From NCBI GenBank assembly GCA_965116145.1, contig OZ220482.1, forward strand, positions 1,916,143-1,980,142: a stretch of 64,000 nucleotides of DNA, written 5' to 3'. Each line of letters begins with the position of its first letter. Position 1 is the first letter of the stretch. This document shows positions 4,426 through 64,000 of this stretch, one piece after another. Position numbers and translations under genes: made by a program. This stretch comes from Thermoanaerobaculia bacterium (GTDB lineage Bacteria > Acidobacteriota > Thermoanaerobaculia > Multivoradales > Multivoraceae). The notes below the pieces were generated by a model. The model did not search any database, had not been told where the DNA came from, and worked only from the letters and a program-made list of their open reading frames with translations.

Positions 4426-4596
4426 CTAGCAGCCTGTCGCAAGGGTCACGCCGTACTCGTTTCCGCCATGCATCTCCGTCCGGCTGCGTTGCTTTTCACT
4501 CAGACATGCACGACATGCGTCGCCATGATGAAGCCTTGCCGGACGGGCGCCTGACCGCTCCCGGTGCGACACGAACGTCCGCCACGGATTGCCAGG
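4426..4596 (-). repeat. MITE-like element copy (full length, orientation B), in divergent moaC/GT2 intergenic region
   Basis: ctagcagcctgtcgc...gccatgcatctccgtccggctgcgttgcttttc...ccttgccggacgggcgcctgaccgctcccggtgcgacac...ccacggattgccagg. Shares both conserved cores and terminal inverted repeats with the 8555..8722 copy. Confidence 0.7.
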
Positions 4597-4601
4597 AGGA
4601 G

Positions 4602-5285
4602 ATGCGAGTCGCGATCGTCATGCCGGTGCTGGAGGAGGCGGCACGGGTACAGGACGCCGTCGACGCGGCCCGCGCTCACTGCGACGAACTCCTCGTCATC
4701 GACGGCGGCAGCACGGATCGGACCGCGGAACTGGCCGCCGACAGGGGCGCCCGGGTTGTCACCCTGCCGCGGGCCGGGCGCGGGCTGCAGCTCCGAACGG
4801 GCGCTGACCTGGCCCTCCGGACCGGCGCCGATGTGCTGCTCTTCCTCCACGCCGACACGCGGCTGCCGCCGGCCGCCAGGTCCGGCCTGGAGGAAGCGGT
4901 GCAGGCCGGTGCGGTCGGCGGCGGTTTCCTGATCGACTTCGAGCCGACATCGCCGCTGTTGCGGCGCGGCCGGGTCCTGGTCGATTTCCGCACCCGCCGG
5001 CTGCGTCTGCCGCTCGGCGACCAGGCCCAGTTCGCCACGGCCGCGGCCTACGCCGCCAGCGGCGGCTTCTCCGACCTGCCGATTCTCGAGGATCTCGACT
5101 TCATCGGCCGTCTCCGCCGGCAGGGACCGATCTCCATCGTCGAGCAGCGCGCGACGACGTCATCCCGACGCTTCGCCGAACGAGGCGTGGTGCGCACCGT
5201 CGCGACGAACTGGCTGATCTGGTTGCTGTTCGCGGCCGGCGTCAAGCCGACCCGGCTGGCCAGCCTCTACCCCCTGGTGCGCTGA
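4602..5285 (+). CDS. family-2 glycosyltransferase
   Basis: ATG 4602 preceded by AGGAGGAG. MRVAIVMPVLEEA..ELLVIDGGSTDRT..RGARVV is a GT-A fold N-terminus. The track N-terminal 32 aa are read-through of the upstream MITE copy. Confidence 0.7.
   Translation: MRVAIVMPVLEEAARVQDAVDAARAHCDELLVIDGGSTDRTAELAADRGARVVTLPRAGRGLQLRTGADLALRTGADVLLFLHADTRLPPAARSGLEEAVQAGAVGGGFLIDFEPTSPLLRRGRVLVDFRTRRLRLPLGDQAQFATAAAYAASGGFSDLPILEDLDFIGRLRRQGPISIVEQRATTSSRRFAERGVVRTVATNWLIWLLFAAGVKPTRLASLYPLVR

Positions 5286-56640: not shown

Positions 56641-56644
<4 letters not shown>
54368..56644 (+). CDS. ntrY: nitrogen-regulation-type sensor histidine kinase (NtrY-like: 4TM-HAMP-PAS-HisKA-HATPase)
   Basis: N-terminal TM helices, HAMP (PIEALADGTRRIAGGDLGHRV), PAS (LSLDRDGRILTCNRAALEMLG), H-box IAHEIKNPLTPIRL, N/G boxes NLLDNAIAAT, DTGSGVP, GSGLGLAIVQRIV. 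GTG 54368 overlaps the upstream stop (ATG 54386 is the alternative). Confidence 0.85.
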
Positions 56645-58001
<1,357 letters not shown>

Positions 58002-58005
<4 letters not shown>

Positions 58006-59924
58006 GCGCAACCGCCGCCAGCCGTTTCGTCGTCGGCACGGCCGGCCACGTCGACCACGGCAAGACGCGGCTGGTCGAGGCCCTGACCGGAGTCGACTGC
58101 GACCGCTGGGAAGAGGAGAAGCAGCGCGGCATAACGATCGACCTCGGCTTCGCTTCGACGATCGAGGACGGCTGGCAGATCGGCTTCGTCGATGTGCCCG
58201 GACACGAGAGGTTCGTCCACAACGCGCTCGCCGGGCTCGGCGGTATCCAGATGATGATGATGGTCGTCGCCGCCGACGAAGGCGTCATGCCCCAGACCCG
58301 GGAACACCTCGCGATCTGCTCCCTGCTCCGGATTCCGGCCGGCCTCGCCGTCCTCTCCAAGACAGACCTCGTGCCCGCCGATCTCGCGGAGCTGGCCGCG
58401 CTGGAACTCGAGGAGACGCTCGCGGAAACTCCGTTCGCCGGCGCGCCGATCCTGCCGGTGTCGGCCCGGACCGGGGAGGGCCTCGGGCGGCTTCGCGCCG
58501 CCCTGCTCGACCTCGCCCGATCGGCCAGTCCGATCGACCGCCAGCGCCGCCTGCCCGCGCGGCTGCCGATCGACCGCGCCTTCCACCTGCGCGGCCTCGG
58601 AGTGCTGGTCACCGGAACGCTCGCCCGGGGAACGGTCAGCGTCGGCGACGAACTTGCCGTCCTGCCCGCGGACCGCCCGGCCCGGGTACGCAGCATCGAG
58701 GTCCACGGCGACCGCCGGCAGCAGGCGGAGGCCGGCGAGCGGACTTCGGTTCAGCTCGTCGGCGTCGACCTCGAACAGGTCGCCCGCGGCCACGAGCTGG
58801 CCGCGCCCGGCGTCTACCGCGCCACGAACTCGCTGCTCGTCCGCTGCCGGCTGCTTGCCGACGCTCCGGAACCGCTTCAGGGAAGCTGTGCCGTGCGAGT
58901 CCACGTCAACGCCGCGCAACGCATCGGCAAGCTGCGTGCGCTCGACAGCGAACGTCTGGCGCCGGGAGACGAGGCGCTGGCGGAGATCCGGCTGGACGAG
59001 CCGCTGGTGACGATCCGGGGCGACCGCTTCGTCATCCGCAGGCCCTCGCCCCAGACCACGCTCGGAGGCGGCGAGGTGCTCGACCCGGCCTGGAGACGCC
59101 CCCGGAGGCAGAGTCTCGGAAACGCCCTCCGGGCGCTCGCCGCCAGCGACCGGCAGACGGCGGCCATCCAGTGGGCCGCCGACGGCCGAGAGGCCGGGCT
59201 CGCGGTCGGCGAACTCGGACTGCGGCTGGGCGTGGCCCCCGCCGATGCAGAGGACCTTCTGAACGGCGCCGAACGCGAGGGCCATCTGCTCAAGGCAGCC
59301 CCCCGACGCTACGTCATCGGGGCCGAAGTCCGCGGCGTGGTCCGCCGCGCCCGCCGCCTGGTCGAGGCGCACTTCGCCGCCGATCGCCTGTCCCGCGGCA
59401 TGCCGAAGGCCGAGCTCGTCCGGCGGCTGCTCGACACCCGCGCCGCCGACCTGGCGCCCGCCTACCTGGACTGGGCGAGCCGCGGCAGCAGCAACGAAGC
59501 GATCGCGATCGAGGGCGACCTCGCGACCCTGCCCGACCGCACCAGCGAACTGACCGGAGCCGAGTCGAAGCTCGCCCGGGACATCGTCCAGGGCTTCGAG
59601 CGCCAGGGCCTGACCCCGAACTCACCCGAGGACCTCTGCCGCACCCTGAACGCCAAGCCGCAACTGTTCGACGGTGTGCTCCGGTACCTCGTCGACCGCG
59701 GCCAGATCGTCCGGCTTCCCGGCGGCCTGCTCGTCGCCGCCGTCTCCCTGGAGCGCCTCCAGGCCGACCTGCAGGCGACCGGCTGGGACACGTTCACCGT
59801 CGCCGACTTCAAGGACCGCTTCGGACTGACCCGCAAGTGGGCGATCCCGCTGCTGGAGTACACGGACCGGCAGCGTCTGACCCGGCGGGAGGGAGACCGA
59901 CGGCGGGTGCTGCGGCCGCCATAG
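58002..59924 (+). CDS. selB: selenocysteine-specific translation elongation factor
   Basis: VVGTAGHVDHGKTRLVEALTGVDCDRWEEEKQRGITIDLGFA, DVPGHERF, EF-Tu-like domains II/III, about 260-aa C-terminal winged-helix extension. 640 aa. GTG overlaps ntrX stop (GTGA). Confidence 0.8.
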
Positions 59925-60056: not shown

Positions 60057-62744
60057 CTACGCCTTCGCCTCGTACCAGTCGGCGCCGGAGCCGATATCGA
60101 CAACGAGAGGCACACCGAGGTCGGCGACGCCCTCCATCTCTTCCCTGACGAGGGAGGCAAGCGAGTCGATGTCCGCGGCCGGGGCCTCGAGCACAAGTTC
60201 GTCGTGAACGGTCAGCAGCAGCCGCGCGTCTTCGAGCTCCAACCGCAGGCGGCGGTCGACGGCGATCATCGCGAGCTTCAGCAGATCGGCGGCCGTGCCC
60301 TGGATGCGGGCGTTGACGGCCATCCGGCGGGCGTTCTCCCGCACCGCGCGGTTGCGGCTCCCGAGGTCGGGCAGGTACCGGACGCGGCCGTACAGGGTCT
60401 GGACCTGGAGCGTCTCCTCGGCCTCGGCGACGGTCTGCTCGGTGTAGGTCCGCACGCCCGGGAAGCGGTTGAAGTAGGCCTCGATGAAGGCCTGCGCCTC
60501 GCCGCGCGCGATGCCCAGTGCGCGCGCCAGGCCGAAGGCGCTCATGCCGTAGATGATGCCGAAATTGATCGTCTTTGCGGCGCGCCGCTGATCGTCGGTG
60601 ACCAGGGCCGGCGCCACGCCGAACACGGTGGCCGCGGTCGACCGGTGGATGTCGCCGCCGTGCCGGAAGATGTCGATCAGTGCGTCGTCGTCCGAGATGT
60701 GCGCGAGCACCCGGAGCTCGATCTGGCTGTAGTCGGCGACCAGGAGCCGGTAGCCGCCGCGGGCGCGGAAGGCTCGGCGCACTGCGCGCCCGATCTCCGT
60801 GCGGATGGGGATGTTCTGGAGGTTCGGGTCGTGCGAGGACAACCGGCCGGTCGCCGCCACCGCCTGGTGGTAGCGGGTGTGGAGACGGCCGTCGGCCGCG
60901 ATCACGTGCGGCAGCGCGTCGACGTAGGTCGACCTGAGCTTGGTGAGCTCCCGATACTGGAGGACCCTGGCCGGCAGGTCATGGCCGCGCTGCGCAAGTT
61001 GCTCGAGAACCTCCGCGCCGGTTGCGTACTTCTTCGTCTTGCGGGTGCGGCCGAGCACCGGCAGTCCCAGCTTCTCGAACAGGACGGCGCCGAGCTGGGA
61101 CGGCGACTGGATGTTGAACCTCTCTCCGGCGAGATCGAAGATCTCCTCCGCCAGATCTCCGCTGTCGAGCTCGAGGCGCCGCGACATCTCGGCCAGTACG
61201 TCCCGGTCGAGCTCGATGCCCTCCTCCTCCATGGCCGCGAGCACCGGCAGCAACGGCGCCTCGATCCTCTCGTAGACCGCGCGGGCGCCCGCCGACTCCT
61301 GCCACTGCCCGGCGAGAGCGGCGAGGATGAGCGCGGGCAGCACCGCCTGCTCGGCCGCGTAGAGGCGCAGGCCGGCGTCGCCTCCGAGGGCCGGCGACGG
61401 CGCCGCCGAAGCCGCCGGGTCCAGACCTGCGTCCGCCGGCGTCGAGACGCTGTACTGCAAGCGGTCGAGCGCGACCTCCGCCAGGCCGAAGCTGCGCACC
61501 GCCGAACGCAGCAGGTAGGCCATCAGCATCGTGTCGACCAGCCGCGCCGCCACCACCGGCCGGGCGTCCCGGTGCGGACACAGACGGACCACCTCCTTCA
61601 GGTCGTGGCCGATCAGCTCGATATCGGGATCGGCGAGCCAGGCCCGCAGCGTCGCGGCCACCGCCTCGCGCAGACCGGGCGTCTCGAAGCCGGCGAAGCG
61701 GGTCCGCCCGACCTCGATGCCCCCTCCGTCGGCGCTCTCGTCCACCGCCGCGAACGAGAACCCGGCCGGTGCGCCGCCGCGACGGTGCACGACCCCGACC
61801 GCCACCCCTTGCCCGATCTGCGCCGCCGCGTCTTCGAACTCCGAAACAGCCTGCAGCAGGATTGCCGGCTCGACCTCCGGGCCGCCGCTCTCGCCTTCGA
61901 GCTCCTTGAGCAGGCTCCAGAACTCGAACTCGCGGCACAGCTCCGCCAGCGCCTCGAAGTCCGGCGATTCCATCTCGAGCGCCTCGGCATCGAACGGCAC
62001 CTCGAGATCCGTGTGGATCGTCACCAGCTCCCTGGACAGCAGGGCCTGGTCCGCGTGTTCCGTCAGTCCTTCGCGGTAGGCCTTGCGCTTGAGCCCGGGT
62101 GCGGCGTCCAGCAACGCCTGGAGGCTGCCGTACTCACGGATCAGCGACTGCGCGCCCTTCTGGCCTATTCCGGGGACGCCCGGCACGTTGTCCACCTTGT
62201 CGCCGACCAGGGCGAGCACATCGGCCACCTGTACCGGAGGCACGCCGAAGTCCTGCTCGACCAGCGCCGGATCGTAGGTCTTCTCGCGGCCGGTGTGGAG
62301 CAGCGAGACGCGGTCGGAGACGAGCTGGAACAGGTCCTTGTCGGCGCTGACGATGGTGACCTCGTATCCCGCATCCTCCGCCCTTCGCCCGAGGGTGCCG
62401 ATGACGTCGTCCGCTTCGTAGCGCTCGAGCTCGAGGATCGGGATGCGGAAGGCCTCGATCGCCCGCCGGATGGCCGGCATCTGCGCTCTCAGGTCGTCCG
62501 GCATCGGCGCCCGGTTCGCCTTGTACTCGGCGTAGGCCTCGGTGCGGATCGTCGTCCGTCCGACATCGAGGGCGATGCCGAGCAACGGCGGATTCTCCTC
62601 GCGCAGCAGCTTGCGCAGCATGTTGATGAAACCGTAGATCGCGTTCGTCGGCTCTCCCTTCGACGTCGAGAGCGCACGGATCGCGTAGAAGGCACGGAAG
62701 ATCGTCGAGTAGCCGTCGATCAGATACAGGCGTTTGGCGGTCAC
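60057..62744 (-). CDS. polA: DNA polymerase I
   Basis: 5'-3' exonuclease N-terminus (LYLIDGYSTIFRAFYA), central 3'-5' exo-like region, polymerase motifs A (LLVADYSQIELR), B (RRAAKTINFGIIYG), C (QVHDELVLE). 895 aa. Confidence 0.95.
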   Translation of the reverse strand: MTAKRLYLIDGYSTIFRAFYAIRALSTSKGEPTNAIYGFINMLRKLLREENPPLLGIALDVGRTTIRTEAYAEYKANRAPMPDDLRAQMPAIRRAIEAFRIPILELERYEADDVIGTLGRRAEDAGYEVTIVSADKDLFQLVSDRVSLLHTGREKTYDPALVEQDFGVPPVQVADVLALVGDKVDNVPGVPGIGQKGAQSLIREYGSLQALLDAAPGLKRKAYREGLTEHADQALLSRELVTIHTDLEVPFDAEALEMESPDFEALAELCREFEFWSLLKELEGESGGPEVEPAILLQAVSEFEDAAAQIGQGVAVGVVHRRGGAPAGFSFAAVDESADGGGIEVGRTRFAGFETPGLREAVAATLRAWLADPDIELIGHDLKEVVRLCPHRDARPVVAARLVDTMLMAYLLRSAVRSFGLAEVALDRLQYSVSTPADAGLDPAASAAPSPALGGDAGLRLYAAEQAVLPALILAALAGQWQESAGARAVYERIEAPLLPVLAAMEEEGIELDRDVLAEMSRRLELDSGDLAEEIFDLAGERFNIQSPSQLGAVLFEKLGLPVLGRTRKTKKYATGAEVLEQLAQRGHDLPARVLQYRELTKLRSTYVDALPHVIAADGRLHTRYHQAVAATGRLSSHDPNLQNIPIRTEIGRAVRRAFRARGGYRLLVADYSQIELRVLAHISDDDALIDIFRHGGDIHRSTAATVFGVAPALVTDDQRRAAKTINFGIIYGMSAFGLARALGIARGEAQAFIEAYFNRFPGVRTYTEQTVAEAEETLQVQTLYGRVRYLPDLGSRNRAVRENARRMAVNARIQGTAADLLKLAMIAVDRRLRLELEDARLLLTVHDELVLEAPAADIDSLASLVREEMEGVADLGVPLVVDIGSGADWYEAKA

Positions 62745-62935
62745 GGCGACGGTCGCTCCAGGCTGTTTCCTGTCAGTGCCGCGGAGGAACTGCTGGTAAG
62801 ATGCGCCGCATCATTCGACTCGGCCGTGCGACGGCAGACAGTTCGGGACGGAAGGATGACTCATGACGAAGATGAGTGGCTGTCGCGAAGACGCCGGCAG
62901 CGCGCCGTTCGCAAGTGCGGCCTTGACTGTACCCT

Positions 62936-62952
62936 CCCCCCCCCCCCCCCCC
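62936..62952 (+). repeat. homopolymeric C17 tract
   Basis: accct then 17 consecutive C, ending at the ATG at 62953. TTGACT (-35-like) sits 8 nt upstream of the tract. Candidate slipped-strand (phase-variation) site or an assembly artefact. Confidence 0.6.
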
Positions 62953-64000
62953 ATGAAGTCAGGGCGCGGGGCTGAGCCGGTGCGCGCCCTCCGGAGAGCC
63001 GGACGCGGACTGAACCCGGCGGTCACCGCCGTCCTGATCCTGGCCCTGGCCGCCGCGGCCCTGCAGCCCCGGGCCGCCCAAGCCCAGGACAGCATCACCC
63101 TGACGGCCACCGGAGGCGACAGCGTCATCCACATCCAGTGGAAGTACAGCGGCGACAGACACTCATCGGGCCATACCTGGTGGCGGGTCCAGTACTTCGT
63201 TGGAACAGGCGGCGGCCCCTGGGTCTTCCCCGCCACGGATAACAAGTACAACTACTCGTACTACACGATAGGCCGCGGATCAGCGGACCTCCCGGCGACC
63301 AACGGACAGCGGTACGCCATCAACATCCAACTCGTGGACAGGAATGTCAACGTCCTGGCGGCAGCTGTCCGGAACAATCAGGGCTGGGTCTTCGCCACGC
63401 CCAGGGCGACGACACCGACGCTGATCTCGGGTGCAGACAGCACCGTCACGGTCGCCAGCGCCGGGGCGACGCCCCTGGTGTGCTTCAACCTGCTTTCGGT
63501 CTCGCAGAGCACGCCGGATGGAACGGTCACCTATCTTGAAGCGCGCAACGGCGAGACGGCCGTGTCCGCGCACTCGGTGCTCGCCGACTCGAGTTTCGGC
63601 GTCGAGATCACCCAGGCCCCCGCCGGCATCACCAAGGGTCGCCGCGTCAATCTCAGTCCCTGCGCCAATCTCGGGGTGGGCGCGCATACTGTCACCTGGA
63701 GCTGGACGGGCCGCGACGGCACCGCCGCGGCGGGCACGACCTCCACCACGGTCACCGTCGCGGTCAAGGACTACGGTCCGAAGAAGGTCACGCTGTCGGC
63801 GTCCCCGTCGACGACGATCACCGAGGGCGACTCCGGGTCGTCGGCCGTCACCATCACCGCCACCCTCAGCGAACCGGCGCCCGCGAACTTCTTCGTCGCC
63901 CTGACGGCCGACGCGAATGAAGGCTCAGCCACCTGGTCCGGCAAGGCGGCCAACGAGTGCGACCCGCCTCTGGACCCGGCGGACACCGACTGGTGCTGGC
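62953..64000 (+). CDS. secreted repeat protein (partial, continues beyond window): signal peptide plus Thr/Ser-rich Ig/FN3-like beta domains
   Basis: Open frame to window end, absent from track because it has no stop. MKSGRGAEPVRALRRAGRGLNPAVTAVLILALAAAALQPRAAQA|QD signal; GTG 62980 is an alternative start. Repeated T/S/V-rich beta-strand segments (TVTVASAGATPLVCF, TVTVAVKDYGPKKVTLSASPSTTITEGDSGSSAVTITATLSEP). Confidence 0.5.
   Translation, partial: MKSGRGAEPVRALRRAGRGLNPAVTAVLILALAAAALQPRAAQAQDSITLTATGGDSVIHIQWKYSGDRHSSGHTWWRVQYFVGTGGGPWVFPATDNKYNYSYYTIGRGSADLPATNGQRYAINIQLVDRNVNVLAAAVRNNQGWVFATPRATTPTLISGADSTVTVASAGATPLVCFNLLSVSQSTPDGTVTYLEARNGETAVSAHSVLADSSFGVEITQAPAGITKGRRVNLSPCANLGVGAHTVTWSWTGRDGTAAAGTTSTTVTVAVKDYGPKKVTLSASPSTTITEGDSGSSAVTITATLSEPAPANFFVALTADANEGSATWSGKAANECDPPLDPADTDWCW

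What the first reader, a model, noticed from the sequence alone, without database searches (positions are those of the whole stretch)
62923..62980. 17-C homopolymer between a TTGACT -35-like hexamer and the start of a secreted repeat-protein gene
C17 (62936..62952) directly abuts ATG 62953 and lies 27 nt upstream of the alternative GTG 62980 (MRALRRAGRGLNP... signal peptide). Long G/C homopolymers are classical slipped-strand phase-variation switches for surface proteins. Tract length would change either promoter spacing or the reading frame. The downstream partial ORF encodes a signal peptide followed by Thr/Ser-rich Ig/FN3-like beta repeats, i.e. a surface or adhesin-like protein. A tract of this length may also be an assembly or homopolymer sequencing artefact.
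Basis: partly seen in the sequence, partly recalled or inferred. Interest (0 to 1): 0.65.

Follow-up and report, generated by a model that had tools for sequence, protein, structure and literature searches.

The report
Variable poly-C leader of surface-protein gene
The 17-C run is real and marks the leader of a horizontally spread gene family for giant fibronectin-type surface proteins, apparently of sponge-associated bacteria from many phyla, where it most likely acts as a fast-mutating switch on translation rather than as a promoter spacer.

Summary
C17 lies at 62936-62952 and is the only homopolymer longer than 7 in the 64 kb.

It is not an artefact. Of 26 homologous loci in MAGs of at least eight phyla or classes, 24 carry a C run of 9-27. 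It ends 25-40 nt (mode 28) before the start of a 1300-1900 aa secreted FN3-repeat protein. Some members end in an autotransporter barrel. Nearly identical copies differ in run length (C18 vs C22, C13 vs C5).

- The gene starts at GTG 62980. ATG 62953 is coincidental.
- No -35/-10 pair spans the run. Promoter-like sites lie further upstream.
- A short upstream ORF (SD GGAAGGA, ATG 62863) reads into the run, which encodes proline in any frame.
- Run length decides where that ORF ends. C15/C18 stop at the invariant TGA 62973, 4 nt before the GTG. C16/C19 stop at TGA 62954. C17, as assembled, fuses it to the gene.

Best reading: a hypermutable tract in a translated leader that sets translation of a surface adhesin. 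Switching itself is inferred, not shown. It is a new variant of a known kind, and moderately to highly interesting.

The parts
60057..62744 (-). polA (DNA polymerase I), the divergent neighbour. It is not part of the element but marks its upstream limit.
   Evidence: Pfam DNA_pol_A, 5_3_exonuc_N and 5_3_exonuc. In a relative with 85% identical PolA the gene next to polA is a different one, so the FN3 gene is not ancestral at this place.
62794..62802 (+). TGgTAAGAT, an extended -10-like motif. It is the candidate promoter of the leader transcript. The call is weak because there is no good -35.
   Evidence: It aligns with -10-like hexamers of homologous leaders: TATAGT, TAAGGT, TATAAT, TATAAA. 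Sigma70-like pairs lie 30-220 nt upstream of the tract in L001/L009, L004, L010, L011, L012, L021 and L027. The tool's strict scan of the window found none.
62850..62856 (+). GGAAGGA, the Shine-Dalgarno sequence of the upstream ORF.
   Evidence: It lies 6 nt before ATG 62863. The same SD plus ATGACG start is conserved in at least 8 diverged lineages.
62863..62935 (+). Upstream ORF (MTKMSGCREDAGSAPFASAALTVPS...), from its ATG to the tract.
   Evidence: It is open into the tract here and in every lineage that has the conserved start. P(open) is 0.34-0.55 per lineage, about 1e-3 combined. Its peptide is poorly conserved, and frame-breaking indels occur in its 3' half.
62923..62928 (+).
   Evidence: It is present. 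No -10 lies 16-18 nt downstream, and the spacing to TGAAGT is 25 nt. Together with AGTCA at 62957-62961 it forms an inverted repeat around the tract, but such repeats are not general in the family.
62936..62952 (+). C17 tract (C3-T-C17 if counted from 62932). It encodes proline in all three frames of the upstream ORF.
   Evidence: Homologous tracts of 9-27 C are shown.
62954..62956 (+). TGA that would end the upstream ORF directly after the tract at C13, C16, C19 or C22.
   Evidence: In-silico change of tract length.
62968..62971 (+). GGGG, the weak Shine-Dalgarno-like element of the main gene, 8 nt before the GTG.
   Evidence: GGGG, GAGG or GGAG is conserved at this position in the family.
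62973..62975 (+). TGA stop for the upstream ORF, 4 nt before the GTG. It is reached at C12, C15, C18 or C21.
   Evidence: CTGA lies 4 nt before the start in all loci that have the GTG. In the Dehalococcoidia loci L025 and L027 it overlaps the ATG as CTGATG.
62980..63084 (+). True start (GTG) and signal peptide MRALRRAGRGLNPAVTAVLILALAAAALQPRAAQA|QD.
   Evidence: Homologues start M[GR]AL[GR]R... at this codon. The cleavage site is inferred from the AQA motif and its conservation, not from a predictor.
63085..64000 (+). Mature part of the protein, cut off by the window end. It holds an FN3-like domain, then a conserved family-specific beta domain (VCFNLLSV..GVEITQAPAGITKGR..NLSPC..HTVTWSW), then Ig-like repeats.
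   Evidence: Full-length homologues give Pfam fn3 at 1e-27 to 1e-74. P0131 has an Autotransporter beta-domain at its C-terminus (E 1.5e-9, 38.4 bits against a cut-off of 26). The window fragment itself reaches no Pfam threshold. The AlphaFold model is all-beta but of low confidence (pLDDT 57).

Best explanation
The C17 run is a genuine, conserved, slippage-prone tract in the transcribed 5' leader of a gene for a giant secreted FN3-repeat surface protein. Some full-length family members are autotransporters. The gene family has spread horizontally among bacteria of many phyla, at least one of them a sponge symbiont.

How it is built:
- The gene starts at GTG 62980, with only a weak SD (GGGG).
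- Upstream, a short ORF with a strong SD (GGAAGGA, ATG 62863) is translated into the tract.
- The tract reads as polyproline in every frame.
- The number of Cs therefore sets the frame in which ribosomes leave the tract.

The three outcomes:
- C15 or C18: the upstream ORF ends at the invariant TGA 62973, 4 nt before the GTG. This is the geometry of termination-reinitiation coupling.
- C16 or C19: it ends at TGA 62954, directly after the tract.
- C14, C17 or C20: it runs on into the gene and adds 39 residues in front of the signal peptide. This is the state in this assembly.

Gain or loss of one C by replication slippage would thus switch or grade translation of the surface protein. Polyproline stalling and shielding of the C-rich RNA could add further effects.

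What is shown: the anatomy, the conservation, the length polymorphism and the frame consequences. What is inferred: that the leader is transcribed from upstream, that the upstream ORF is translated, that coupling occurs, and that lengths vary within a population.
For: 1. Real and conserved. 24 of 26 homologous loci carry a C run of 9-27 that ends 25-40 nt (mode 28) before the start codon.
2. Hypervariable. Two paralogues in one genome have 97-98% identical flanks but C18 against C22. Two copies with 99% identical flanks have C13 against C5 at their first tract.
3. Start codon. GTG or ATG sits at the homologous position in all loci except L023 and L024.
4. The tract lies downstream of the likely promoters. 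Sigma70-like pairs lie 30-220 nt upstream, for example TTGACA-18-TAAAAT in L004, TTGAAA-17-TATAGT in L011, CTGAAG-17-TATAAT in L010 and TTGACA-16-TATTTT in L012. They sit at one aligned position in diverged leaders. No pair spans the tract in 17 of 19 distinct loci.
5. In L023 and L024 there is no start codon after the tract, and the ORF is open through it from an upstream GTG. There the tract must be transcribed and translated.
6. The upstream ORF has a conserved strong SD and ATGACG start and is open into the tract in every lineage, about 1e-3 combined. In L002 two such ORF-tract modules are chained by an ATGA overlap.
7. An invariant TGA lies 4 nt before the start or overlaps it.
8. The 9-27 range of lengths fits a modulo-3 or length-tolerant role. 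It does not fit a 17 +/- 1 nt promoter spacer.
9. Gene callers fused the upstream ORF to the gene in several database homologues, giving N-termini such as MTKKIGNLGMHGLRLSGRGASRAREPELFVPPPPPFFQESGRGAEPV-SAIGRTARRL.
10. The frame outcomes for C12-C22 were computed directly.
Against: - There are no transcript, ribosome or read-level data. The transcription start, translation of the upstream ORF, coupling and within-population heterogeneity are all inferred.
- The frames seen in the assemblies are spread about evenly over the three outcomes, roughly 9 fused, 8 at TGA -7 and 7 at +31. This shows no selection for one state. It is equally what one expects if frame does not matter.
- HiFi consensus lengths of long homopolymers are unreliable, so the assembled frames carry little weight.
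- The peptide of the upstream ORF is poorly conserved, and its 3' half tolerates frame-breaking indels.
- In G+C-rich DNA open frames are common, so the 1e-3 is only moderate evidence.
- A -10-like A-rich hexamer follows the tract in most lineages: AAGAGT, TAGAAT, GAAAAT, GAAATT. A Dehalococcoidia homologue (L028) clearly has its homopolymer in a promoter spacer. A transcriptional role is therefore not excluded.
- The window's own promoter call is weak.
Confidence: 0.45

Rival explanations
1. The tract is a fixed leader element, not a switch. The poly-C RNA and the polyproline it encodes work whatever the exact length. Possible roles are an EF-P- or proline-sensitive ribosome stall in the leader ORF, or an unstructured C-rich loading site for Rho that is shielded when the leader ORF is translated. 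Length variation would then be tolerated noise.
For: CCC codes for proline in all frames. Lengths of 9-27 are all tolerated, and the assembled frames are evenly spread. The RNA from the tract to the start folds less well than shuffled versions, with z from +0.9 to +2.4, so it is an open, C-rich stretch. From established knowledge: poly(C) is the classical activator of Rho, and consecutive proline codons stall ribosomes without EF-P, as used in the Salmonella mgtP and mgtL leader ORFs.
Against: No alternative RNA structures or covariation were found that would turn a stall into a read-out. The invariant TGA just before the start codon suggests that the exit frame matters. A fixed element gives no reason to keep an uninterrupted, highly mutable homopolymer rather than mixed proline codons.
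Confidence: 0.22
2. The tract acts on transcription, as in Neisseria opc/porA or Bordetella fim. It would be the spacer of a promoter, either towards the gene (-10 directly after the tract) or on the opposite strand, so that its length sets promoter strength.
For: An A-rich hexamer with A at position 2 and T at position 6 follows the tract in most lineages. TTGACT lies 7 nt before the window tract. On the minus strand the window reads CTGACT-25 nt-TACAGT. The L028 homologue has TTGACA-18 nt (including G15)-TAAATT, the only promoter-like site in 6 kb. L011 8916-8930 reads TTGACT-tca-C15-gg-TATTGT. TA directly precedes the tract in most loci.
Against: In 17 of 19 distinct loci no -35/-10 pair (at least 7 of 12 matches) flanks the tract on either strand. 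Where a pair is found, the spacer on the gene's strand is 12-23 nt and is 17 only in L002 (7 of 12 matches). On the minus strand L012 (15-16 nt) and L018 (18-19 nt) come within range, also at 7 of 12. The window spacer is 25 nt. The strict scan finds nothing in 62500-63300. A 9-27 nt length range is incompatible with a 17 +/- 1 nt spacer. L023 and L024 need the tract inside the mRNA. Promoter-like sites and a conserved SD and ORF lie upstream, with no terminator in between.
Confidence: 0.15
3. Classical intragenic frameshift switch. The protein really starts at ATG 62863, the tract lies in its 5' coding region, C17 is the ON state, and +/-1 C truncates the protein.
For: ATG 62863 has a good SD and is in frame with the gene through C17. 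L023 and L024 have no other start. Gene callers produced such fused proteins.
Against: GTG or ATG with its SD-like element is conserved at the signal-peptide start in 24 of 26 loci. A silent valine codon would drift. Only about a third of loci are in the fused frame. A 39-66 residue proline-rich extension in front of an otherwise canonical signal peptide is atypical. The extension is not conserved as a peptide.
Confidence: 0.08
4. The tract has no function. It would be a mutational by-product or a scar at the 5' boundary of a horizontally transferred cassette that simply persists.
For: In L004 and L012 the G+C content jumps from 0.40 upstream to 0.60-0.63 in the gene, and sequence similarity to the family begins at the tract. 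In several other lineages the sequence upstream of the tract is also unrelated.
Against: The tract is kept at a fixed distance from the start codon in lineages whose proteins are only 40-55% identical. A neutral homopolymer would be interrupted or lost quickly. Only L025 shows such decay, to C6.
Confidence: 0.07
5. Sequencing or assembly artefact, such as a poly-G/C read artefact or a chimeric join.
For: Long homopolymers are error-prone, and the exact length is uncertain.
Against: The same feature is found at the same position in 24 independent homologous loci on contigs of up to 4.5 Mb. Both flanks of the window tract are homologous to the flanks in those loci.
Confidence: 0.02

Closest known systems
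Poly-C or poly-G tracts in promoter spacers of surface-protein genes: Neisseria meningitidis opc and porA, Bordetella pertussis fim2/fim3 (from my own knowledge, not checked here)
   Same: A long C or G homopolymer lies just upstream of a surface-protein gene, and its length differs between strains by slippage.
   Different: Here no -35/-10 pair flanks the tract. The lengths span 18 nt. The tract lies downstream of the likely promoter and inside a translated upstream ORF. One family member (L028) does use the promoter-spacer layout.
Intragenic homopolymer frameshift switches: Neisseria pilC, the Campylobacter jejuni poly-G contingency genes, and the homopolymeric tracts surveyed in PMC2831843
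   Same: Tract length modulo 3 decides a reading frame near the 5' end of a gene for a surface structure.
   Different: The frame that shifts belongs to a separate upstream ORF. The gene has its own conserved start downstream of the tract. Two of the three frames end at stop codons placed around that start.
Helicobacter pylori tlpB and hp0102: a variable G-repeat in the mRNA leader targeted by the sRNA RepG (PMC8295292)
   Same: A length-variable homopolymer inside the 5' leader acts after transcription.
   Different: The run is C, not G. No partner sRNA is known or was searched for. Here the tract is inside an ORF.
Haemophilus influenzae hmw1A: a transcribed heptamer repeat in the 5'-UTR that pairs with a G-rich arm and is cut by RNase III (PMC12721329)
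   Same: A simple repeat is transcribed in the leader of a large adhesin gene, with a G-rich segment downstream (here GGGCGCGGGG).
   Different: No stable or conserved hairpin is predicted here. The leader folds less well than shuffles, and no covariation was found.
Proline-codon leader ORFs mgtP and mgtL of Salmonella mgtCBR and mgtA (from my own knowledge)
   Same: A short upstream ORF with consecutive proline codons precedes a host-interaction gene, and translation speed in the leader sets downstream expression.
   Different: There the read-out is through alternative RNA hairpins or Rho, with a fixed sequence. Here no attenuator structure was found, and the proline run is a mutable homopolymer.

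Membership tests
Slipped-strand contingency locus (phase-variable gene) | A homopolymer or short repeat long enough to slip (about 8 or more) in or next to the 5' end of a gene | tested here: met
   C17 lies 27 nt before the start codon.
Slipped-strand contingency locus (phase-variable gene) | Repeat number differs between closely related copies or strains while the flanks are conserved | tested here: met
   L011 has C18 and L013 has C22, with 97-98% identical flanks. L001 has C13 and L009 has C5, with 99% identical flanks. The family range is 9-27. The window's own strain could not be compared.
Slipped-strand contingency locus (phase-variable gene) | Length heterogeneity within one population (reads or colonies) | not testable with these tools
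   No reads are available. The window's proteins could not be located in the contig collection.
Slipped-strand contingency locus (phase-variable gene) | A change in repeat number changes expression | not testable with these tools
   Only the predicted frame consequences could be computed.
Slipped-strand contingency locus (phase-variable gene) | The product is a surface or secreted structure | tested here: met
   The signal peptide is conserved. Homologues have fn3 repeats. P0131 has an Autotransporter beta-domain.
Promoter-spacer type switch (opc, porA, fim) | The tract lies between a -35 and a -10 hexamer, giving a 16-18 nt spacer at the ON length | tested here: not met
   The window has no site in the strict scan. 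Its best pairs have 25-nt spacers. 17 of 19 distinct loci have no flanking pair.
Intragenic frameshift type switch (pilC-like) | The tract lies downstream of the gene's true start codon | tested here: not met
   The conserved start is GTG 62980, after the tract. The feature is met only in L023 and L024. An in-frame upstream ATG exists in the window.
Leader-ORF (uORF) controlled gene | A short upstream ORF with its own ribosome-binding site on the same transcript | tested here: inconclusive
   The SD and ATG are conserved, and the ORF is open into the tract in all lineages. Transcription and translation were not shown.
Leader-ORF (uORF) controlled gene | A structural or positional link between the end of the upstream ORF and the start of the gene | tested here: met
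   An invariant TGA lies 4 nt before the start or overlaps it. L002 has an ATGA overlap between its two leader ORFs.
Leader-ORF (uORF) controlled gene | Conserved alternative RNA structures (attenuator type) | tested here: not met
   RNAalifold gives a positive covariation term and only 1 compensatory pair in 23. The inverted repeat around the tract is not general. There is no Rfam match.
FN3-repeat autotransporter adhesin | fn3 domains in the passenger region | tested here: inconclusive
   Full-length homologues meet it at 1e-27 to 1e-74. The 340-aa window fragment reaches no Pfam threshold.
FN3-repeat autotransporter adhesin | A C-terminal autotransporter beta-barrel | not testable with these tools
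   The window ends inside the gene. P0131 has the domain, but P0128 instead ends in LRR repeats.

The most novel reading that the evidence does not exclude
The leader is a self-contained, mobile regulatory cassette: promoter, SD, a leader ORF that runs into a poly-C/polyproline tract, then a stop placed 4 nt before a weak GTG start. It would travel together with giant FN3 adhesin genes between unrelated sponge symbionts. It would work as a new kind of phase switch, in which homopolymer slippage re-frames an upstream ORF and so turns translational coupling to the gene on or off. That would make contingency loci a general, cross-phylum strategy of sponge symbionts for varying their host-facing surface.
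Probability: 0.3. Interest if true: 0.85.

Novelty: new variant of a known kind. Interest (0 to 1): 0.66.

Why it matters
Hypermutable homopolymers are known mainly from a few host-adapted pathogens. Here the same device sits in front of one rare gene family in uncultured bacteria of at least eight phyla or classes. Only 31 clusters among 1.84 billion representative proteins match the family's N-terminal part. At least one of the source genomes comes from a sponge.

The family encodes fibronectin-III ("eukaryote-like") surface proteins, the class long suspected of mediating recognition by the sponge host. If the tract switches these proteins on and off, three things follow:
- Symbiont populations inside a sponge would be phenotypically mixed with respect to a host-facing adhesin.
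- The switch and the gene would have been shared by horizontal transfer.
- The layout, with the tract inside a leader ORF and a stop codon just before the real start, would be a mechanism not described for phase variation.

All three can be tested with existing HiFi reads, metatranscriptomes and simple reporter constructs.

Tried and rejected
- Source contig. Exact look-ups of window proteins (PolA, the sigma-54 regulator, and the 100% identical P0003) to fetch the source contig, the rest of the gene and other samples all returned nothing.
- Metagenome scans. The protein-pattern scan found no relative. The DNA pattern GGGCGCGRRRYTGANCYGGTG was too degenerate: 120 chance hits, none with a C run.
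- Protein database. Word-indexed searches returned only 2 family members each time. The extra hit P0123/L150 is a fragmented FN3/Calx-beta gene with no tract.
- Inverted repeat around the tract as a hairpin or protein site. It is significant only in the window and the alphaproteobacterial group and absent elsewhere. Rejected as a defining feature.
- Conserved leader RNA structure. No covariation was found.
- Poly-C pairing with the G-rich SD region, as in hmw. The leaders fold less well than shuffles. Not supported.
- Known RNA families. Nothing relevant turned up.
- Promoter spanning the tract. Rejected for this architecture.
- Preference for one upstream-ORF exit frame across loci. None was seen.
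- Structure of the N-terminal domains. The model is too poor (pLDDT 57) to justify a fold search.
- Synteny. The relative with 85% identical PolA has a TPR/FG-GAP gene next to polA instead.
Full report
**1. The observation**

The window reads GCC-TTGACT-GTACCCT-C17-ATG-AAGTCAGGGCGCGGGGCTGAGCCG-GTG. C17 lies at 62936-62952, ATG at 62953 and GTG at 62980. It is the only homopolymer longer than 7 in 64 kb of 69.4% G+C DNA. C runs of 4, 5 and 6 occur 171, 36 and 5 times, and then nothing until 17. Chance is excluded.

The run sits in the 236-nt gap between polA (minus strand, 60057-62744) and a plus-strand ORF that runs off the window.

**2. The gene and its start**

Two database homologues, P0001 and P0002 (49-53% identical), begin MGALGR..., aligned to the window's V/M-RALRR encoded from GTG 62980. 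A scan of one genome per species found 26 related loci. In 24 of them the ORF begins with GTG (ATG in L027) at the homologous codon and encodes 1300-1900 residues.

ATG 62953, which touches the run, has no counterpart. Other loci read TCAAGAG or GAAAAT at that place.

Full-length homologues carry several fn3 domains. P0131 ends in an Autotransporter beta-domain (PF03797, 38.4 bits against a cut-off of 26). P0128 instead ends in leucine-rich repeats. The window fragment has a canonical signal peptide (n-region with Arg, hydrophobic core, AQA|Q) and then beta-rich domains. It reaches no Pfam threshold by itself, and the AlphaFold model is all-beta but poor.

An exhaustive HMMER search of 1.84 billion representative proteins found only 31 matches to the first 245 residues. 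The family is rare.

**3. Who carries it**

The 26 loci come from MAG chromosomes labelled Binatia, Arenicellales, Pseudomonadales, Alphaproteobacteria, Gammaproteobacteria, Thermodesulfobacteriota, Vicinamibacteria, Ca. Marinacidobacterium, Ca. Multivorans, Dehalococcoidia and Ca. Poriferihabitaceae.

The Poriferihabitaceae assignment appears in the data note on the sponge Phakellia ventilabrum, whose metagenome was assembled from PacBio HiFi reads with metaMDBG (PMC12859430). The other records have the same naming style as that project's sponge metagenomes (for example Petrosia ficiformis, PMC12648040). I could not tie accession numbers to hosts, so a sponge origin for them is an inference.

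The window's PolA is 84-86% identical to PolA of Acidobacteriota and Holophagales MAGs, and 100% identical to a protein on a 3.73-Mb contig. In a relative with 85% identical PolA, the SelB and sigma-54 regulator side is syntenic, but the gene next to polA is a different one.

In the two low-G+C hosts, L004 and L012, G+C jumps from 0.40 upstream to 0.60-0.63 in the gene, and similarity to the family begins at the tract. The gene is therefore horizontally acquired.

**4. The tract is a conserved, length-variable feature**

24 of the 26 loci have a C run of 9-27 upstream of the gene on the coding strand: 23, 17, 27, 13, 13, 11, 10, 12, 18, 11, 22, 11, 16, 9, 18, 13, 13, 13, 13, 14, 14, 9, 21. It ends 25-40 nt before the start, most often 28 (27 in the window).

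The sequence between run and start is conserved: tcAAGAGTCaGGGCGCGGGGCTGAgCCG-GTG.

- Two paralogues in one alphaproteobacterial genome (L011 and L013) have 97-98% identical flanks but C18 against C22.
- L001 and L009 have 99% identical flanks but C13 against C5 at the first of their two tracts.
- L014 and L017 have C11 against C18.
- L025 has only C6 at the homologous site.

This excludes an artefact and shows the tract changes length much faster than its surroundings. Because these are HiFi consensus sequences, exact lengths are uncertain by a base or so.

**5. Where the promoter is**

- The strict scan finds no sigma70-like site in 62500-63300.
- TTGACT (62923-62928) is 25 nt from the only -10-like hexamer downstream (TGAAGT), which lacks the key A.
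- I tested every distinct homologous locus for a -35/-10 pair flanking the tract on either strand. 17 of 19 have none. The few hits score 7-9 of 12. On the gene's strand only L002 reaches a 17-nt spacer, at 7 of 12, and on the minus strand L012 and L018 come within range, also at 7 of 12.
- In contrast, good pairs lie 30-220 nt upstream of the tract: L004 TTGACA-18-TAAAAT, L011 TTGAAA-17-TATAGT, L010 CTGAAG-17-TATAAT, L012 TTGACA-16-TATTTT, L021 TTGACA-16-GAAAAT, L027 CTGACA-17-TAAAAT, and L001/L009 TTGAGA-17-TAAGGT.
- In an alignment of diverged leaders the -10-like hexamers fall in one column. The window has TGgTAAGAT (62794-62802) there.
- In L023 and L024 no start codon follows the tract, and the ORF is open through it from an upstream GTG. 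The tract must be in the mRNA there.

I conclude that the tract is transcribed as part of the leader. This is an inference from motifs, not a mapped start.

**6. The upstream ORF**

About 75-100 nt before the tract, at least eight diverged lineages share a strong SD and start. Examples are GGGAGGATGGGGCC-ATGACG in the main group, GGAAGGATGACTC-ATGACG in the window (SD 62850-62856, ATG 62863), GGAAGGGTGAGGCC-ATGACG in L003 and AGGGAGGTTGAGGTC-ATGACG in L021.

In every lineage this ORF is open into the tract. Shuffling gives a probability of 0.34-0.55 per lineage, about 1e-3 combined.

Its peptide is weakly conserved (MTRMPGDVGMHDLRLFGRG..., MTKMSGCREDAG...), and its 3' half tolerates a 1-nt indel (L016 against L017). 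What is conserved is the act of translation, not a peptide.

CCC is proline in all frames, so the tract always encodes 3-9 prolines. After the tract the three frames meet different fates:
- a TGA 4 nt before the GTG (CTGAgCCG-GTG, invariant, and CTGATG in the Dehalococcoidia loci);
- a TGA about 31 nt inside the gene, or in the window a TGA directly after the tract;
- fusion with the gene.

For the window I computed the outcomes: C12/15/18/21 stop at 62973, C13/16/19/22 stop at 62954, and C14/17/20 give fusion.

In L002 two ORF-tract modules are chained by an ATGA stop-start overlap, and L001/L009 also have two tracts. Gene callers fused the upstream ORF to the gene in database entries P0127, P0128, P0131, P0132 and P0140, giving N-termini with PPPP(P)(P) followed by ...SGRGAEPV and then the signal peptide.

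The main gene has only a GTG and a weak GGGG/GAGG SD. That is typical of a start that depends on upstream translation.

**7. Mechanism proposed**

Ribosomes load at the strong upstream SD, translate into the polyproline tract and leave it in a frame set by the number of Cs.
- Termination at the TGA 4 nt before the GTG would allow re-initiation (coupled, high expression).
- Termination right after the tract, or inside the gene, would not.
- Fusion would give a protein with a buried signal peptide.

Slippage by one C would move between these states. Polyproline stalling (EF-P dependence), shielding of a C-rich Rho-binding RNA, frameshift-prone decoding of CCC-C and RNA polymerase slippage could all modulate or blur this. 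These points come from general knowledge and were not tested.

**8. What speaks against it**

- The assembled frames are spread evenly, about 9 fused, 8 at -7 and 7 at +31. There is no sign that one state is preferred. This fits very fast switching, unreliable consensus lengths, or irrelevance of the frame.
- No conserved RNA structure supports an attenuator.
- The inverted repeat around the tract in the window (CCTTGACT...AGTCAGGG) and in the alphaproteobacterial group is absent elsewhere.
- The RNA from tract to start folds less well than shuffles.
- An A-rich, -10-like hexamer follows the tract in most lineages, and TA precedes it. I cannot explain either under the translational model.
- One homologue (L028, Dehalococcoidia) has a different and unambiguous layout: TTGACA-ata-G15-TAAATT, an 18-nt spacer, about 130 nt before the ATG, and the only promoter-like site in 6 kb. 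Homopolymer control of this family thus exists in at least two forms, and a transcriptional component in the window's form is not excluded.

**9. Comparison with known systems**

- It behaves like a slipped-strand contingency locus. Three features were met: tract, polymorphism and surface product. Population heterogeneity and the effect on expression could not be tested.
- It is not the opc/porA/fim promoter-spacer type (tested, not met).
- It is not the pilC-type intragenic switch. The start lies after the tract, except in L023 and L024.
- The closest leader-located examples are the H. pylori tlpB G-repeat with RepG (PMC8295292) and the H. influenzae hmw1A repeat in a 5'-UTR hairpin (PMC12721329). 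Neither involves an upstream ORF.
- The proline-codon leader ORFs of Salmonella (mgtP, mgtL) resemble the polyproline aspect but are not mutable repeats.
- A full-text search found no paper linking sponge symbionts with homopolymer phase variation.

**10. Verdict**

The specifics change:
- The start is GTG 62980.
- The tract is in a translated leader, not between promoter hexamers.
- The frame that shifts belongs to an upstream ORF.

My confidence that the tract is a genuine conserved hypervariable leader element tied to this gene family is about 0.9. That it modulates expression, about 0.7. That it does so by the upstream-ORF frame and coupling mechanism, about 0.45.

It is a new variant of a known kind. 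It is interesting because of its cross-phylum spread with a host-interaction gene and its unusual layout.

Noticed in passing
L028 2476-2492, 4515-4529, 8190-8205 (Dehalococcoidia MAG OZ220477): There are three G runs (G17, G15, G16) within 6 kb. Each lies between a perfect TTGACA and a TAnnnT hexamer (TAAACT, TAAATT, TAGAGT), giving spacers of 20, 18 and 20 nt. Each is preceded by the direct repeats GAAATTTGCC-cc-GAAATTGCC. The middle one drives the family homologue. This looks like a cluster of promoter-spacer phase switches with a shared activator site.
   Followed up: partly
L011 8916-8930: A second tract (C15) lies about 190 nt after the FN3 gene. It is flanked by TTGACT-tca and gg-TATTGTCAAGG. 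Because the flanks are an inverted repeat (TTGAC...GTCAA), it looks like a promoter on both strands. The motif GTCA[AG]GG 4-7 nt after a C run recurs in L028, in L011 and in the window family.
   Followed up: partly
L001 1123-1135 and 1175-1184; L009; L002 5889-5894 and 5952-5967: The module of leader ORF plus tract is tandemly duplicated in some loci. In L002 the first leader ORF stops at a TGA that overlaps the ATG of the second (ATGA).
   Followed up: partly
L004 and L012, at the tract: G+C rises from 0.40 in the 3 kb upstream to 0.60-0.63 in the gene. Similarity to the family starts exactly at the C run, so the run marks the 5' edge of the transferred DNA in these hosts.
   Followed up: partly
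L001 1213-2463 and 2481-6800; L002 6001-7374 and 7371-9074; L025 around 4440: Several family genes are split or frameshifted in the assemblies. The C-terminal part of P0001 reads like out-of-frame sequence, while the near-identical L009 copy is one 1858-aa ORF. In L025 the ATG is out of frame with the gene. These could be HiFi indel errors, pseudogenes or further slippage sites.
   Followed up: no
window 58002-58005: The sigma-54 response-regulator gene (56641-58005) and selB (58002-59924) overlap by 4 nt (GTGA). The same gene order (HAMP/PAS kinase, regulator, selB, then polA) is kept in the relative L029, which has an extra luciferase-like gene between selB and polA.
   Followed up: no
most loci, 2 nt before the tract: TA (as GTA, CTA, TTA or ATA) directly precedes the C run in most loci, including ones whose upstream sequence is otherwise unrelated. 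In the window it is GTA followed by CCCT. A is the rarest expected neighbour in this G+C-rich DNA. This is unexplained.
   Followed up: partly
L006 about 4890-4915 and equivalents; L010 about 4575-4595: A short G+C-rich hairpin lies inside the leader ORF about 25 nt before the tract. Forms include GCGTGAG-cgc-CTCACGC, with variants GTGC-T-GAG/CTC-GCAC and GTGAGG/CCTCAC, and CATGCGC-acttg-GCGCATG in L010. It seems to be kept by changes on both sides, but it was not picked up by RNAalifold.
   Followed up: partly
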